Source of the DNA: Candidatus Babeliales bacterium
Lineage (GTDB): Bacteria; Babelota; Babeliae; Babelales; JBFXEV01
Length of the DNA: 64,000 bases
Direction of reading: 5' to 3'
NCBI GenBank assembly: GCA_963716425.1
Contig: OY970310.1
Coordinates: forward strand, 1,606,807-1,670,806
The number at the start of each line of letters is the position of its first letter. Positions within the stretch are counted from its first letter, which is position 1. Positions 50,236 through 53,127 of the stretch are shown in pieces. Made by a program: the position numbers and the translations under genes. The notes below the pieces were generated by a model. It was not told the DNA's origin. It ran no database searches and saw only the letters and a list, made by a program, of their open reading frames with translations.

Positions 50236-51291
50236 ATGTTTATACTTGTATGTATTCTTATATGCATGAGCATGAACTCTGCTCAAGCAATGGATGCGCA
50301 TGATCTTGTAACCTATTCACAAAATAGCAATGGCCGCGAGCATTGGCAAGCTCTTTTTGATCGAGCTGCACTCAAGCGAGGCTCGCGGCTTACGGATGTT
50401 AAAACATTAATAAAAACTGTGCCGCGCATTTTTAAAGGCAATGAACCTTCAGTGCCGCAAGAGTGGATTGAAAAAGACTTGCCGATGGCAGAATCAAGTG
50501 ATTGCATGCTAACGTGGATTGGCCATGCAACGTTTTTGCTACAAGCGCAAGGCATATGTGGTTTAATTGATCCTTTTTGGGGAGATTATACGTGGGGAAT
50601 TTTTACACTCTATAAACGTTTGGTGCCTGCTGCATTAAAAAAAGAAGAAGTGCCACCGCTCACTTTTATAGCTCTTTCTCACAACCATGTTGATCATTGT
50701 GATCTTGAAGCCTTACGGTTTTTCCAGCATCGCGATAATCCTATTGCCTTAGTGCCTGAAGGAGATCAAGCATGTTTTGAACAATTAGGATTTCAGGCAG
50801 TAGTACCTTGCCGGTGGGGTGATTCAGTTGAACTTAAAAAAGGGGCAGGCAAAATTGATTGTACCTTTTTACCTGCAGCACATGATGGTGATAATGGTGC
50901 CTGGTGGGGAAGTTGGTTATTCACTACAGAAGAACATGCTATTTATCATGGTGGTGATACGGGTGATGCGGCGCATTTTCAGGAGATTGCAAAGCAGCAC
51001 AAAATTGATGTGGCATTACTTCCTATTGCCCCTTATACCATGCGTGAATTACAGCAGCCTGCACATATTGATCAACAAGAAGCGGTGGATGCTTTTCAGC
51101 GTTTAGGTGCACGGCTTTTTATCCCTATGCATTGCTGCACGCTCCCTTATTGCAATGATGTTCCAGAAGAATGCATTACAAGGTTGCAAGAAGAGTGGCG
51201 CAAAGCTGCTCATCAAGTACAAGATAAACAGTTGCTTATGCTTAAATTTGGTAAACAATATATCTTAAAAAATCTGCTTGCGAAAAATTAG
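50236..51291 (+). CDS. Leader-bearing metallo-beta-lactamase-fold hydrolase (NAPE-PLD/UlaG-like subgroup)
   Basis: Leader MFILVCILICMSMNSAQAM|DA. LTWIGHATFLLQAQG..LIDPFW; LSHNHVDHCD (HxHxDH); later HGGDTG and PMH metal ligands. Confidence 0.75.
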   Translation: MFILVCILICMSMNSAQAMDAHDLVTYSQNSNGREHWQALFDRAALKRGSRLTDVKTLIKTVPRIFKGNEPSVPQEWIEKDLPMAESSDCMLTWIGHATFLLQAQGICGLIDPFWGDYTWGIFTLYKRLVPAALKKEEVPPLTFIALSHNHVDHCDLEALRFFQHRDNPIALVPEGDQACFEQLGFQAVVPCRWGDSVELKKGAGKIDCTFLPAAHDGDNGAWWGSWLFTTEEHAIYHGGDTGDAAHFQEIAKQHKIDVALLPIAPYTMRELQQPAHIDQQEAVDAFQRLGARLFIPMHCCTLPYCNDVPEECITRLQEEWRKAAHQVQDKQLLMLKFGKQYILKNLLAKN

Positions 51292-51428
51292 TTTCCTTGA
51301 GCCACTTTTCAGGTTGAATATTGATTTTTTCTTTGTAGCACAATGTATATAATCATTTTTCTTTACATAATTAATCCATAATTGCTATGTTGTAAATAGC
51401 AGCAGATATGTAATTGTTAGGAGAGTTA

Positions 51429-52955
51429 ATGATGTTTAAGAAATTATTAGTAATGCTAATGCTGTTTTCAGTATCAGCTGCAATGTGCATGGAACGCGTA
51501 ACCATTCAACCGCATGAGGGCAAAGACTTTAAGATAGATGTAAAGCTTGCCAAGCTTTCTAAGACCATTAAGAATTTGATTGAGGATGCTGGGATTGATA
51601 ATCCAATACCATTGCCCAGTGTTCCAGGGCCTATATGGGAGAAAATACAAGAACAATTGGGGCGTTTAGAGATAATTGTAAATAAAATTCCAAAGGACCA
51701 AAAATCAGAAGCGGCTGCCAAAAAAGCTGAAGATGAAATTACCGCAGCATTAAACTTGCTTAATGGTGATGATCTTGTGGGAGTTATTGCAGCAGCCAAT
51801 TATTTGGATATTCCTGATCTTTTGCGTTTATCAATGGATGTAGCCAAGCAGGTAGATATTAAAAAGATTACTCCTGAGCAAATTGCTACTTTGCCAAAAG
51901 ACATTCGTAATTCCATTATTTTTGAGCAGATTTCACGTATTTTGGGGAAATGGCAGATTAAGCAGCTTGCTGAGCTCAAAGGCCATAGAGGGGCGGTTTA
52001 CTCAGTCTGTGTAACACCTGACGGGAGCAAGATAGTTTCAGGCTCTGGGGATGCTACAATACGTATATGGGATATCAAGAGCGGCAATCAGCTTGCAGAG
52101 CTCAAAGGCCATACGTTTTATTCGGTTAGGTCAGTCTATATAACACCAGATGGCAGAAAGATAGTTGCAGGCTCTGATGATCAAACAATACGTGTATGGG
52201 ATATCACAAGTAGCAAGCAGCTTGCAGAGCTCAAAGATCATATAGGTTCGGTTTCCTCAGTCTGTGTAACACCAGATGGTAGCAAGATAGTTTCAGGCGA
52301 TGAGTATGGAAGAATACTTGTATGGAATATGAATAATCTCAATAAGCCATCAGTTGTGCCTACAGGCCATACAAATTCAGTTTTCTCAGTCTGTGTAACA
52401 CCAGATGGTAGCAAGATAGTTTCAGGCGGTGTATATGGAAGTATACTTGTATGGAATATGAATAATCTCAATGAGCCACCAGTGGTGCTTACAGGCCATA
52501 GAGGTAAAGTTCTTTCAGTCTGTGTAACACCAGATGGTAGCAGGATAGTTTCAGGCGGAGAGGATTTCACAATACGTGTATGGGAAATGAAAAACTTGAA
52601 TGAGCGACCAGTTGTGCTTAGAGATACAGATGTGGTTTACTCAGTCTGTGTAACACCAGATGGGAGTAAGATAGTTTCAGGATCTGGTGATAATACAATA
52701 CGTATATGGGATATTAAAAGTGGCAAGCAGCTTGCAGAGCTCAAAGGCCATACAGATTATGTTAACTCAGTCTGTGTAACACCAGATGGGAGCAAGATAG
52801 TTTCAGGCTCTAGGGATAATACAATACGTGTATGGGATATTTCACTATTTGATCGTTTACGTGCAATGAACGAAGTACAAACAAAGCAGGTTTGGAGTTA
52901 TTTGCAAGGTGATCATAAAGCGGGGTGGGATGGCATCCATGATATTCTTCGTTAA
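51429..52955 (+). CDS. Skp1-like (BTB/POZ core) domain fused to a seven-bladed WD40 propeller, with N-terminal leader
   Basis: RBS AGGAG, then MMFKKLLVMLMLFSVSAAMCM|ER. Skp1 blocks: VTIQPHEGKDFKIDVKLAKLSKTIKNLIEDAGIDNPIPLPSV and LVGVIAAANYLDIPDLLRLSMDVAKQV..KKITPEQI. Seven repeats of GH...V.SVCVTPDGSKIVSGS.D.TIR[IV]WD. Confidence 0.85.
   Translation: MMFKKLLVMLMLFSVSAAMCMERVTIQPHEGKDFKIDVKLAKLSKTIKNLIEDAGIDNPIPLPSVPGPIWEKIQEQLGRLEIIVNKIPKDQKSEAAAKKAEDEITAALNLLNGDDLVGVIAAANYLDIPDLLRLSMDVAKQVDIKKITPEQIATLPKDIRNSIIFEQISRILGKWQIKQLAELKGHRGAVYSVCVTPDGSKIVSGSGDATIRIWDIKSGNQLAELKGHTFYSVRSVYITPDGRKIVAGSDDQTIRVWDITSSKQLAELKDHIGSVSSVCVTPDGSKIVSGDEYGRILVWNMNNLNKPSVVPTGHTNSVFSVCVTPDGSKIVSGGVYGSILVWNMNNLNEPPVVLTGHRGKVLSVCVTPDGSRIVSGGEDFTIRVWEMKNLNERPVVLRDTDVVYSVCVTPDGSKIVSGSGDNTIRIWDIKSGKQLAELKGHTDYVNSVCVTPDGSKIVSGSRDNTIRVWDISLFDRLRAMNEVQTKQVWSYLQGDHKAGWDGIHDILR
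51962..52836 (+). repeat. Seven tandem 126-129-nt coding repeats (WD40 blades) with long identical cores
   Basis: The core TCAGTCTGTGTAACACCAGATGG(G/T)AGCAAGATAGTTTCAGG recurs at about 52003, 52129 (diverged), 52256, 52385, 52514, 52640 and 52766. CAGCTTGCAGAGCTCAAAGGCCAT recurs 4 times. Confidence 0.9.
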
Positions 52956-53021
52956 TATGAAAAAGGGGTACTAGCAGCTTTGTGCTCTCATGTTTATCCA
53001 CCTAAGATGCTAATGTCTGTG

Positions 53022-53120
53022 CTGCAAAAGAATGCCATGCATAAGGGGGATGAGCAAAGTCATTCTACGCTTCCATGCGGTAAACAATATCTCTTAAAAA
53101 ACTTGTTGATGAAAAAATGA
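53022..53120 (+). pseudogene. 3' remnant of a second MBL-fold gene (paralog of 50236..51291)
   Basis: Translates as ...LQKNAMHKGDEQSHSTLPCGKQYLLKNLLMKK*, compared with the intact gene's end ...LQEEWRKAAHQVQDKQLLMLKFGKQYILKNLLAKN*. Nucleotide match: GGTAAACAATAT(C/A)TCTTAAAAAA. Confidence 0.6.
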
Positions 53121-53127
53121 ATTTGCT

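What the first reader, a model, noticed from the sequence alone, without database searches (positions are those of the whole stretch)
51240..53121. Skp1-WD40 gene is bracketed by the 3' end of an MBL-fold gene and a remnant copy of that same 3' end
The intact MBL-fold gene ends ...QDKQLLMLKFGKQYILKNLLAKN* at 51291. Just after the Skp1-WD40 gene, at 53022..53120, an unannotated stretch translates as ...GDEQSHSTLPCGKQYLLKNLLMKK*, with clear nucleotide identity around GGTAAACAATAT.TCTTAAAAAA.

The Skp1-WD40 gene therefore lies between direct repeats derived from one gene. Two histories would produce this pattern:
- Insertion of the gene into, or next to, a duplicated MBL gene.
- Replacement of most of a second MBL copy by incoming DNA.

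Either history is compatible with the fusion gene being a relatively recent acquisition.
Basis: seen in the sequence. Interest (0 to 1): 0.55.

Follow-up and report, generated by a model that had tools for sequence, protein, structure and literature searches.

The report
Gene-end relic marking an inserted effector gene
A 55-base leftover copy of the end of a hydrolase gene shows where one host-mimicking gene (Skp1-WD40) was slotted into the genome of an amoeba-associated Babeliales bacterium; this is a real but ordinary scar of gene gain.

Summary
The last 55 nt of the MBL-fold gene (51237-51291) recur at 53066-53120, in the same frame and with the stop codon at the same place. Identity is 40/55. 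The Smith-Waterman score is 45, against 20.9 ± 2.6 (maximum 38) in 3000 shuffles. The 23-mer core occurs only twice in the 64 kb.

The similarity does not extend upstream of 53066, so the relic is about 55 nt, not the 99 nt proposed.

A syntenic relative (L003) supplies the predicted empty site: xerC, then MBL, then the convergent ankyrin gene, with no Skp1-WD40. Two further relatives lack it too. The relic sits where the MBL end lies in L003, 41 versus 39 nt from the ankyrin C-terminal codons.

A dnaN tree nests the window inside these relatives, with modest support. The repeat copies differ far less (JC 0.21-0.28) than synonymous sites between the genomes (dS at least 1.3). Both point to a gain in this lineage.

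The gene shows no compositional anomaly, and its closest homologues are only about 50% identical. It is therefore not a fresh foreign import or a recent paralogue copy. I found no evidence for a second full MBL copy.

This is an ordinary insertion scar in a hypervariable slot of secreted-protein genes between xerC and dnaN.

The parts
48118..49125 (+). XerC/D-like tyrosine recombinase gene. It is the conserved left border of the variable slot. The conserved start is probably the Met at 48220.
   Evidence: Pfam Phage_integrase E = 3e-40 plus the SAM-like N-terminal domain. Orthologues of 78-83% aa identity occupy the same position in L003, L005 and L007.
49196..50233 (+). Ankyrin-repeat gene with a hydrophobic leader. 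It is a second lineage-specific gene in the slot.
   Evidence: Pfam Ank_2 E = 2e-37. It is absent from L003, where xerC ends 12 nt before MBL starts.
50236..51291 (+). Intact MBL-fold (UlaG-like) hydrolase gene with a leader peptide.
   Evidence: Pfam Lactamase_B_2 E = 7e-29. The orthologue in L003 is 61% aa / 71% nt identical. The next homologues are at or below 48% full-length identity.
51237..51291 (+). Left copy of the direct repeat. It forms the working 3' end of the MBL gene (...MLKFGKQYILKNLLAKN*).
51292..51428 (.). 137-nt spacer upstream of Skp1-WD40, part of the inserted segment. It contains a weak sigma-70-like match at 51362-51391.
   Evidence: No similarity to any fetched locus or to the rest of the window. 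The promoter-like match is a consensus match only.
51429..52955 (+). Inserted gene: a leader peptide, a nearly full-length Skp1 homologue (aa ~20-169) and a seven-repeat WD40 region.
   Evidence: Pfam Skp1_POZ E = 8e-10 and WD40 x7. PDB Skp1 chains match at E = 2.5e-12 over Skp1 residues 3-151. It belongs to a multi-copy Babeliales family; the closest relatives are 48-52% identical. The C-terminal tail and stop are conserved with paralogues.
52956..53065 (.). 110-nt spacer of unknown origin between the Skp1-WD40 stop and the relic. It is stop-free and in frame with Skp1-WD40.
   Evidence: No significant similarity to MBL or to other loci. P of an open frame is ~0.016. No Rfam match, terminator or fold signal.
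53066..53120 (+). Right copy of the direct repeat. It is a non-functional relic of the MBL 3' end (...LPCGKQYLLKNLLMKK*), sitting at the ancestral junction with the convergent ankyrin gene.
   Evidence: 40/55 identical in register with 51237-51291, with the same frame and stop position. It lies 7 nt from the ankyrin stop. The spacing from the KQY codons to the ankyrin LLG(L/I)P codons is 41 nt here and 39 nt in L003.
53128..54018 (-). Convergent ankyrin-repeat gene with a leader peptide. It is the conserved right neighbour of MBL.
   Evidence: Pfam Ank_2. Positional orthologues occur in L003 (11047-11934) and L005 (8526-9452), sharing C-terminal motifs VKRH...TPF...NY..LLG[IL].
54008..54442 (-). 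144-aa leader-bearing gene with no Pfam match. It is the conserved right border of the slot, next to dnaN (54622-55749).
   Evidence: Orthologues occur in L003, L005 and L007 directly upstream of dnaN.

Best explanation
In the ancestor, the MBL-fold gene ran head-on into a minus-strand ankyrin gene, as it still does in relative L003.

In the lineage of this Babeliales bacterium, a segment of about 1.77 kb (51292-53065) was inserted at the very end of the MBL gene. The segment carries a single gene for a leader-bearing Skp1-WD40 protein with its own upstream spacer. The last ~55 nt of MBL were duplicated in the event.

The left copy stayed attached to the gene and still encodes its C-terminus. 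The right copy stayed attached to the ankyrin gene's 3' end and is now a dead relic. The two copies have since diverged by about 24%.

Shown: the repeat, its register, its position, the empty site in relatives, and the relative age.

Inferred: that the duplication arose locally during the insertion, for example by repair of a staggered or resected break or by a replicative template switch. Also inferred: that the relic has no function.

The event is one of several gene gains and losses in a hypervariable slot between a conserved xerC-like gene and dnaN. That slot collects genes for leader-bearing, probably secreted, host-interaction proteins.
For: - Repeat significance and shared frame and stop.
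- Sharp loss of similarity upstream of 53066, which indicates a duplication boundary rather than uniform decay of a long copy.
- Empty site in L003 (xerC 9083-9988, MBL 10001-11086, ankyrin(-) 11047-11934, p144(-), dnaN).
- L005 has xerC | ankyrin(-) | p144(-) | dnaN, and L007 has xerC | p147(-) | dnaN. Neither has Skp1-WD40, and tblastn finds no paralogue in those loci.
- The relic is the positional equivalent of L003's MBL end, with 41 vs 39 nt to the ankyrin LLG(L/I)P codons.
- A dnaN neighbour-joining tree rooted with three outgroups gives (L003,(window,(L005,L007))). A window-basal topology appears in 1% of bootstraps, so one gain is more parsimonious than two or more losses.
- Repeat divergence is JC 0.21-0.28, against dS of 1.3-2.5 or saturated between the genomes.
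- The Skp1-WD40 stop is the family's native stop, so the gene arrived whole.
- No closer relative of either gene exists among 5.8 billion proteins. The next hits are 58% (MBL) and 52% (Skp1-WD40).
Against: - No mechanism-specific signature was found. There are no terminal inverted repeats, no transposase or integrase inside the insert, and no donor sequence.
- A 55-nt flanking duplication is much longer than classical target-site duplications.
- Eight nucleotide changes in the 13 shared sense codons cause only 3 amino-acid changes, and the stop is kept in place by TAG to TGA. P is ~0.02 if all changes were random. This hints that both ends may have evolved as coding sequence for some time, which fits a donor-borne end better. 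However, silent changes on the still-functional left copy can account for much of it, and polarising the changes with L003 is too noisy.
- The tree rests on one gene with about 70% bootstrap support.
- The relatives are distant (dnaN ~81% nt), so no true pre-insertion allele is available.
Confidence: 0.62

Rival explanations
1. Substitute-end integration. The incoming DNA, either a circular intermediate or a fragment from a related Babeliales strain, already carried an MBL 3' end followed by Skp1-WD40. It recombined within the MBL gene by Campbell-type single crossover, homology-facilitated illegitimate recombination, or a site-specific recombinase acting on an att-like core. The intact gene now ends with donor sequence, and the resident end was displaced downstream. 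This is what happens when phage 21 or e14 integrates into E. coli icd.
For: - The displaced copy sits at the ancestral junction.
- Substitutions between the copies are biased towards silent or conservative changes, with the stop kept in register. P is ~0.02, or ~0.001 if the stop is counted. This is expected if both ends evolved in functional genes.
- Perfectly identical blocks of 12 and 10 nt (GGTAAACAATAT, TCTTAAAAAA) could serve as a crossover core.
- A tyrosine recombinase gene lies two genes upstream.
Against: - There is no integrase or any other gene in the 1.77-kb insert.
- The neighbouring xerC-like gene is a conserved core gene, present at the same place in relatives without the insert.
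- No genome was found in which MBL is followed by Skp1-WD40. Distant MBL homologues have unrelated neighbours.
- The family-conserved L-K-F-G just upstream of the shared block reads L-P-C-G in the relic. The relic either decayed or ends there.
- No breakpoint is visible in the window-vs-L003 identity profile along MBL, although the test has low power.
Confidence: 0.2
2. Tandem duplication and replacement. The whole MBL gene was duplicated in tandem. Later almost all of the second copy was replaced or deleted when Skp1-WD40 arrived, leaving only its last 55 nt.
For: Tandem paralogue arrays are common in these genomes, for example the Skp1-WD40 arrays in L011 and the AB7F19_03335-03355 genes. 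The coding-like substitution pattern would fit a second copy that was functional for a while.
Against: - There is no similarity to MBL anywhere in 51292-53065.
- L003 has a single MBL.
- No second MBL occurs in the window, and no close paralogue exists in the protein database, where the next hit is 58%.
- The scenario needs more events than a single insertion.
Confidence: 0.08
3. Ancestral presence and loss. The MBL / Skp1-WD40 / relic arrangement is old, and the relatives lost the gene cleanly by recombination between the two direct repeats, recreating a single MBL end.
For: Recombination between 55-nt direct repeats would produce exactly the L003 structure. The slot clearly also undergoes losses, since MBL is absent from L005 and L007.
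Against: The window is nested inside the relatives in the dnaN tree, so at least two independent losses are needed. The repeat copies are far less diverged (JC 0.21-0.28) than neutral sites between the genomes (dS at least 1.3), so the duplication post-dates the splits.
Confidence: 0.05
4. Not a relic. The shared ~50 nt is a chance match in A+T-rich DNA, or a short functional motif such as a terminator or regulatory site that happens to occur twice.
For: The match is short and A-rich. The relic lies in the 3' region of two convergent genes, where terminators would be expected.
Against: - 0 of 3000 shuffles and 0 of 724 real windows reach the observed score, and the 23-mer is found nowhere else in 64 kb.
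- The match is to the exact gene end, in frame, with stops aligned, and at the position where the MBL end lies in L003.
- There is no terminator-like site, no Rfam hit and no unusual folding on either strand.
Confidence: 0.03

Closest known systems
Displaced gene-end relics left by integrative elements that carry a substitute 3' end of their target gene. Examples are phage 21, e14 and NC-SV in E. coli icd (PMC12803456 for the icd site; details of the duplicated icd end are from my own knowledge) and the tRNA-gene 3'-end repeats that flank genomic islands.
   Same: An intact gene is followed by inserted DNA and then by a short, diverged, non-functional copy of that gene's own 3' end in direct orientation. 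The differences between the copies are largely silent.
   Different: Here the insert is a single 1.5-kb gene with no integrase, excisionase or phage genes. No att-like inverted binding sites are seen. The only recombinase nearby is a conserved xerC-like core gene. The repeat is about 55 nt and 24% diverged.
Flanking duplications produced by illegitimate or homology-facilitated insertion of foreign DNA, and microhomology or template-switch repair in bacteria. This is general knowledge and was not tested here.
   Same: A one-off insertion of a non-mobile segment, bounded by a direct duplication of target sequence, with an empty site in relatives.
   Different: The junction microhomologies that would identify the process can no longer be read after about 24% divergence.
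Genomic islands of host-interaction genes in Babela massiliensis and other Dependentiae / TM6. These encode ankyrin, WD40, F-box and other eukaryote-like proteins, many with atypical signal peptides (PMC4378268, PMC4776705).
   Same: The slot between xerC and dnaN holds only leader-bearing ankyrin, WD40 and MBL genes, and its content differs in each of four related genomes.
   Different: Those papers describe gene content, not insertion scars. A Skp1-WD40 fusion is not mentioned in the passages I retrieved.

Membership tests
Insertion scar with flanking direct duplication (gene-end relic) | Two copies of the same sequence in direct orientation bracket the extra DNA, with similarity beyond chance. 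| tested here: met
   51237-51291 vs 53066-53120 share 40/55 positions. The Smith-Waterman score of 45 is reached by 0 of 3000 shuffles.
Insertion scar with flanking direct duplication (gene-end relic) | Related genomes show the uninterrupted (empty) site. | tested here: met
   In L003, MBL abuts and overlaps the ankyrin(-) orthologue. L005 and L007 also lack Skp1-WD40.
Insertion scar with flanking direct duplication (gene-end relic) | Each copy is contiguous with its ancestral flank. | tested here: met
   The left copy is the end of the intact MBL gene. The right copy lies 7 nt from the ankyrin stop, with KQY-to-LLG(L/I)P spacing of 41 nt vs 39 nt in L003.
Integrative element with substitute target-gene 3' end (phage 21 / e14-icd type, tRNA-targeting islands) | The insert encodes its own integrase or recombinase and other element genes. 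| tested here: not met
   The only ORF of at least 60 aa in 51292-53065 with any domain support is Skp1-WD40. The xerC-like gene lies outside the insert and is conserved in relatives without it.
Integrative element with substitute target-gene 3' end (phage 21 / e14-icd type, tRNA-targeting islands) | attL and attR share an identical core flanked by recombinase-binding arms. | tested here: inconclusive
   Identical blocks of 12 and 10 nt exist, but no inverted-repeat arms were detected and the copies are 24% diverged overall.
Integrative element with substitute target-gene 3' end (phage 21 / e14-icd type, tRNA-targeting islands) | The element can excise, or is seen at the same site in other genomes. 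| not testable with these tools
   Only one species-level lineage carries it. The window, L001 and L002 are 99.8-100% identical.
Insertion sequence / transposon | Transposase gene, terminal inverted repeats and a short target-site duplication. | tested here: not met
   There is no transposase domain and there are no terminal inverted repeats at 51292 / 53065. The duplication is about 55 nt.
Decayed tandem paralogue (pseudogene of a second MBL copy) | Residual similarity to the parent gene extends beyond its extreme 3' end. | tested here: not met
   blastn and tblastn of MBL vs the window find only the terminal block. Upstream scores are at the shuffle mean.
Integron-like cassette array next to a tyrosine recombinase | Cassettes are bounded by attC-type imperfect palindromes, and the integrase is divergent from the array with an attI site. 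| tested here: not met
   No recurrent palindromic sites occur at gene boundaries. xerC is co-directional and separated from its neighbour by 2-125 nt in the four genomes. Whether the recombinase has an integron-type extra domain was not examined.
Skp1 family (inserted gene, N-terminal part) | Match to the Skp1 POZ domain above the curated threshold, and alignment to solved Skp1 structures. | tested here: met
   PF03931 scores 39.1 bits against a cutoff of 21.9. Thirty PDB Skp1 chains match, the best at E = 2.5e-12, covering Skp1 residues ~3-151. Binding to cullin or F-box proteins was not tested.
Metallo-beta-lactamase fold hydrolases (UlaG-like, Lactamase_B_2) | Pfam match above threshold and an HxHxDH motif. 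| tested here: met
   PF12706 scores 101 bits against a cutoff of 27. The motif SHNHVDHCD is present in the translation.

The most novel reading that the evidence does not exclude
The 55-nt repeat could be the attL/attR-like product of recombinase-mediated integration of a single-gene effector cassette that brings its own replacement end for the gene it lands in. On this reading, the slot immediately downstream of the conserved xerC-like tyrosine recombinase is a dedicated cassette-acquisition site. Babeliales would use it to shuffle genes for secreted host-mimicking proteins: ankyrin, MBL and Skp1-WD40. The slot has four different contents in four relatives, and every resident gene carries the same leader.
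Probability: 0.06. Interest if true: 0.65.

Novelty: new member of a known kind. Interest (0 to 1): 0.27.

Why it matters
The relic gives a dated, polarised example of how an obligate intracellular Babeliales bacterium adds a eukaryote-like effector gene to its genome. One gene was inserted at a convergent gene junction, inside a small slot that differs in every related genome. For annotation, it explains an unannotated ORF-like stretch as a pseudogene fragment. It changes no general understanding, because gene-end relics beside insertions are well known. The more interesting by-products are the hypervariable xerC-dnaN slot and the leader-bearing Skp1-WD40 family, which could be followed up as candidate hijackers of host cullin-RING ubiquitin ligases.

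Tried and rejected
1. Extending the relic upstream to 53022 or to the Skp1-WD40 stop. Local and in-register comparisons are at background. A 21-nt colinear patch (51159-51179 vs 53020-53040, D10) is no better than shuffles.
2. RNA or regulatory explanations. There is no tRNA in the window, no Rfam hit in 47-55 kb at E of 1 or below, no terminator-like site at the relic, and the folding z-scores are -1.3 and -0.3.
3. Compositional foreignness. GC, GC1-3 of Skp1-WD40 lie at the window means.
4. Looking for the source of the insert. The flanking spacers match nothing in the window or in 12 other loci. The paralogues in the same genome (P0014, P0017) could not be retrieved by exact look-up. The closest homologue (L011) sits in a tandem array with unrelated flanks.
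5. Looking for an MBL / Skp1-WD40 neighbourhood elsewhere. Distant MBL homologues (L012-L014) have unrelated neighbours.
6. Testing for a chimeric MBL gene through a breakpoint in identity to L003. The profile is noisy and no breakpoint is visible.
7. Testing whether the slot is at the replication origin. There is no GC-skew sign change and DnaA-box matches are below expectation.
8. Polymorphism. A second assembly of the same species (L001, 99.8%) has no difference anywhere in 43610-55134.
9. Polarising the substitutions between the copies with L003 as outgroup. Too few sites can be assigned, and L003 is too diverged.
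Full report
**What is in the sequence**

- An MBL-fold gene at 50236-51291 ends ...LMLKFGKQYILKNLLAKN*. Pfam Lactamase_B_2 matches it at E = 7e-29.
- A 137-nt spacer follows.
- The next gene, at 51429-52955, has an N-terminal part that matches Skp1_POZ above Pfam's cutoff. That part aligns with nearly the whole of solved Skp1 structures at E = 2.5e-12. The rest of the protein is seven WD40 repeats.
- A 165-nt stretch follows that ends ...LPCGKQYLLKNLLMKK* at 53120.
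- Seven bases later comes the stop codon of a minus-strand ankyrin gene (53128-54018).

**Is the repeat real?**

Yes.
- The repeat finder reports 51237-51287 and 53066-53116 as a 51-nt direct repeat of 76% identity.
- The core GGTAAACAATATNTCTTAAAAAA occurs exactly twice in 64 kb even with three mismatches allowed; 0.01 occurrences are expected.
- In a blastn of the MBL gene against the window, it is the only non-self hit below E = 0.05 (E = 1e-4).
- The Smith-Waterman score between the intergenic stretch and the MBL gene is 45. In 3000 dinucleotide-preserving shuffles the mean is 20.9, sd 2.6 and the maximum 38. Against 724 real windows of the same DNA the maximum is 32.
- The two copies are in the same codon register and terminate at the same codon, TAG and TGA.

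**How far does it extend?**

Not as far as proposed.
- Upstream of 53066 the best local score against MBL is 17, against 16.4 in shuffles.
- In-register identity is 17/69 for 52956-53024 and 14/41 for 53025-53065 (P = 0.15), against 40/55 for 53066-53120. It is 4/15 beyond the stop.
- The demonstrable relic is therefore about 55 nt.
- The sharp edge looks like the boundary of a duplication rather than the remains of a long, uniformly decayed copy.

**Source organism and relatives**

The MBL protein occurs identically on an ENA contig of 249 kb and a Logan contig, and on an NCBI contig of 1.87 Mb. The closest named relatives are Candidatus Babeliales MAGs.

Using dnaN as an anchor and the MBL homologue P0007, I recovered three genus-level relatives. 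Their dnaN is 80-83% nt and 91-93% aa identical to the window's. Gene order between the conserved xerC-like gene and dnaN differs in all four genomes:
- L007: xerC | p147(-) | dnaN
- L005: xerC | ankyrin(-) | p144(-) | dnaN
- L003: xerC | MBL | ankyrin(-) | p144(-) | dnaN
- Window: xerC | ankyrin(+) | MBL | Skp1-WD40 | relic | ankyrin(-) | p144(-) | dnaN

Its MBL gene (61% aa identity) ends ...FKFGKQYILRKLLYAAYEVDTGMPSNTQ* and overlaps the 3' end of the ankyrin orthologue.

**Position of the relic**

In L003, 39 nt separate the AAACAATAT (KQY) codons of MBL from the codons for the ankyrin protein's C-terminal LLGIP. In the window, 41 nt separate the relic's AAACAATAT from the LLGLP codons. The relic thus occupies the ancestral place of the MBL end. 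The extra DNA, 51292-53065 (1774 nt), has pushed the body of MBL away from it.

**Direction and age of the event**

- A dnaN tree rooted with three more distant loci gives (L003,(window,(L005,L007))). A window-basal topology appears in only 1% of bootstraps. One gain is therefore more parsimonious than two or more losses. This rests on a single gene with about 70% support for the key nodes.
- Independently, the two repeat copies differ by JC 0.21-0.28, while synonymous divergence between the genomes is 1.3-2.5 or saturated. The duplication is therefore considerably younger than the splits among the sampled lineages.
- It is not very recent in absolute terms, because 12 of 51 positions differ.
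- A second assembly of the same species (99.8% identical) has no difference anywhere in the region.

**Origin of the inserted gene**

- Skp1-WD40 belongs to a multi-copy family seen in several Babeliales MAGs, often in tandem arrays.
- Four paralogues occur in the same genome at 42-50% identity. The closest protein anywhere is 52% identical.
- Its GC and GC3 (0.406 / 0.325) equal the window means (0.403 / 0.320).
- Its conserved C-terminal tail shows that the TAA at 52953-52955 is the native stop.
- The gene therefore arrived whole. It is neither a fresh copy of a resident paralogue nor compositionally foreign.
- Its flanking spacers match nothing else available.

**Mechanism**

No transposase, integrase, terminal inverted repeat, tRNA, Rfam family or terminator is associated with the insert. 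I therefore favour a one-off illegitimate insertion at the gene end, accompanied by a local ~55-nt duplication.

The main rival is that the incoming DNA carried its own MBL end, as phage 21 and e14 do at icd. Two observations support it:
- Eight nucleotide differences in the 13 shared sense codons give only three amino-acid changes, and the stop is preserved in place. P is ~0.02 under random change.
- Identical blocks of 12 and 10 nt could have been a crossover core.

Four observations count against it:
- The insert has no recombinase.
- No donor arrangement was found.
- The family-conserved LKFG reads LPCG in the relic.
- Silent changes on the still-selected left copy can explain part of the bias.

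A former full second MBL copy is not supported. There is no further similarity to MBL, L003 has a single copy, and no close paralogue exists in the database.

**Verdict**

The phenomenon is a familiar kind of insertion scar, so interest is modest. The context is more noteworthy than the scar itself. It comprises a small slot next to a xerC-like gene whose content differs in every relative and consists only of leader-bearing proteins, and a leader-bearing Skp1-WD40 family.

Noticed in passing
window 49126-54621; L003 9989-12573; L005 8524-10000; L007 1188-1930: The interval between the conserved xerC-like gene and dnaN holds 5, 3, 2 and 1 genes in four genus-level relatives. Besides Skp1-WD40, the window has an extra ankyrin gene (49196-50233) between xerC and MBL that L003 lacks. 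MBL itself is absent from L005 and L007. The interval is a small hypervariable slot for host-interaction genes.
   Followed up: partly
window, N-termini of ORFs, e.g. 49196, 50236, 51429, 54018(-), 54442(-), 59064, 61453, 62778: Every gene in the slot begins with a hydrophobic leader that ends in [A/C/G]-M-[D/E/K/Q] (AMKK, AMDA, CMER, CMKK, AMDE). At least 18 of the 61 long ORFs in the window share this leader. None of the recognisable housekeeping genes (proS, dnaN, recF, xerC) has it. It may be a Babeliales-specific secretion leader; the Babela paper calls its signal peptides 'somewhat atypical'.
   Followed up: partly
window 51429-52955; L011 23-1150, 1383-2915, 3012-3416: The inserted protein is a leader plus a nearly complete Skp1 (aligned to Skp1 residues ~3-151) fused to seven WD40 repeats. 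The family is multi-copy, with at least 5 members in this genome, and forms tandem arrays in other Babeliales MAGs. I found no description of the fusion in the two Dependentiae genome papers searched. It could act as a one-piece mimic of a cullin-RING ligase adaptor.
   Followed up: partly
window 52956-53120: The 165 nt after the Skp1-WD40 stop codon are in frame with that gene and contain no stop for 54 codons (P ~0.016 by shuffling), although only the last 55 nt derive from MBL. This may be chance, dead coding sequence of other origin, or a possible read-through extension.
   Followed up: partly
L003 10670-10672; L004 1483-2509: The MBL orthologue in L003 carries an in-frame TGA (WW*SW, where the window has WWGSW). 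The homologue in L004 is split into two overlapping ORFs. Either the gene is decaying in relatives or these are assembly errors.
   Followed up: no
window 40403-41424 vs L001 166-1190: Of the 48 differences between the window and a 99.8%-identical assembly from another sample, 41 cluster in about 1 kb inside the minus-strand ORF 40326-41654 (a 442-aa leader-type protein). Six more lie in dnaN (55135-55644). This is a local hypervariable gene or a recombination patch.
   Followed up: no
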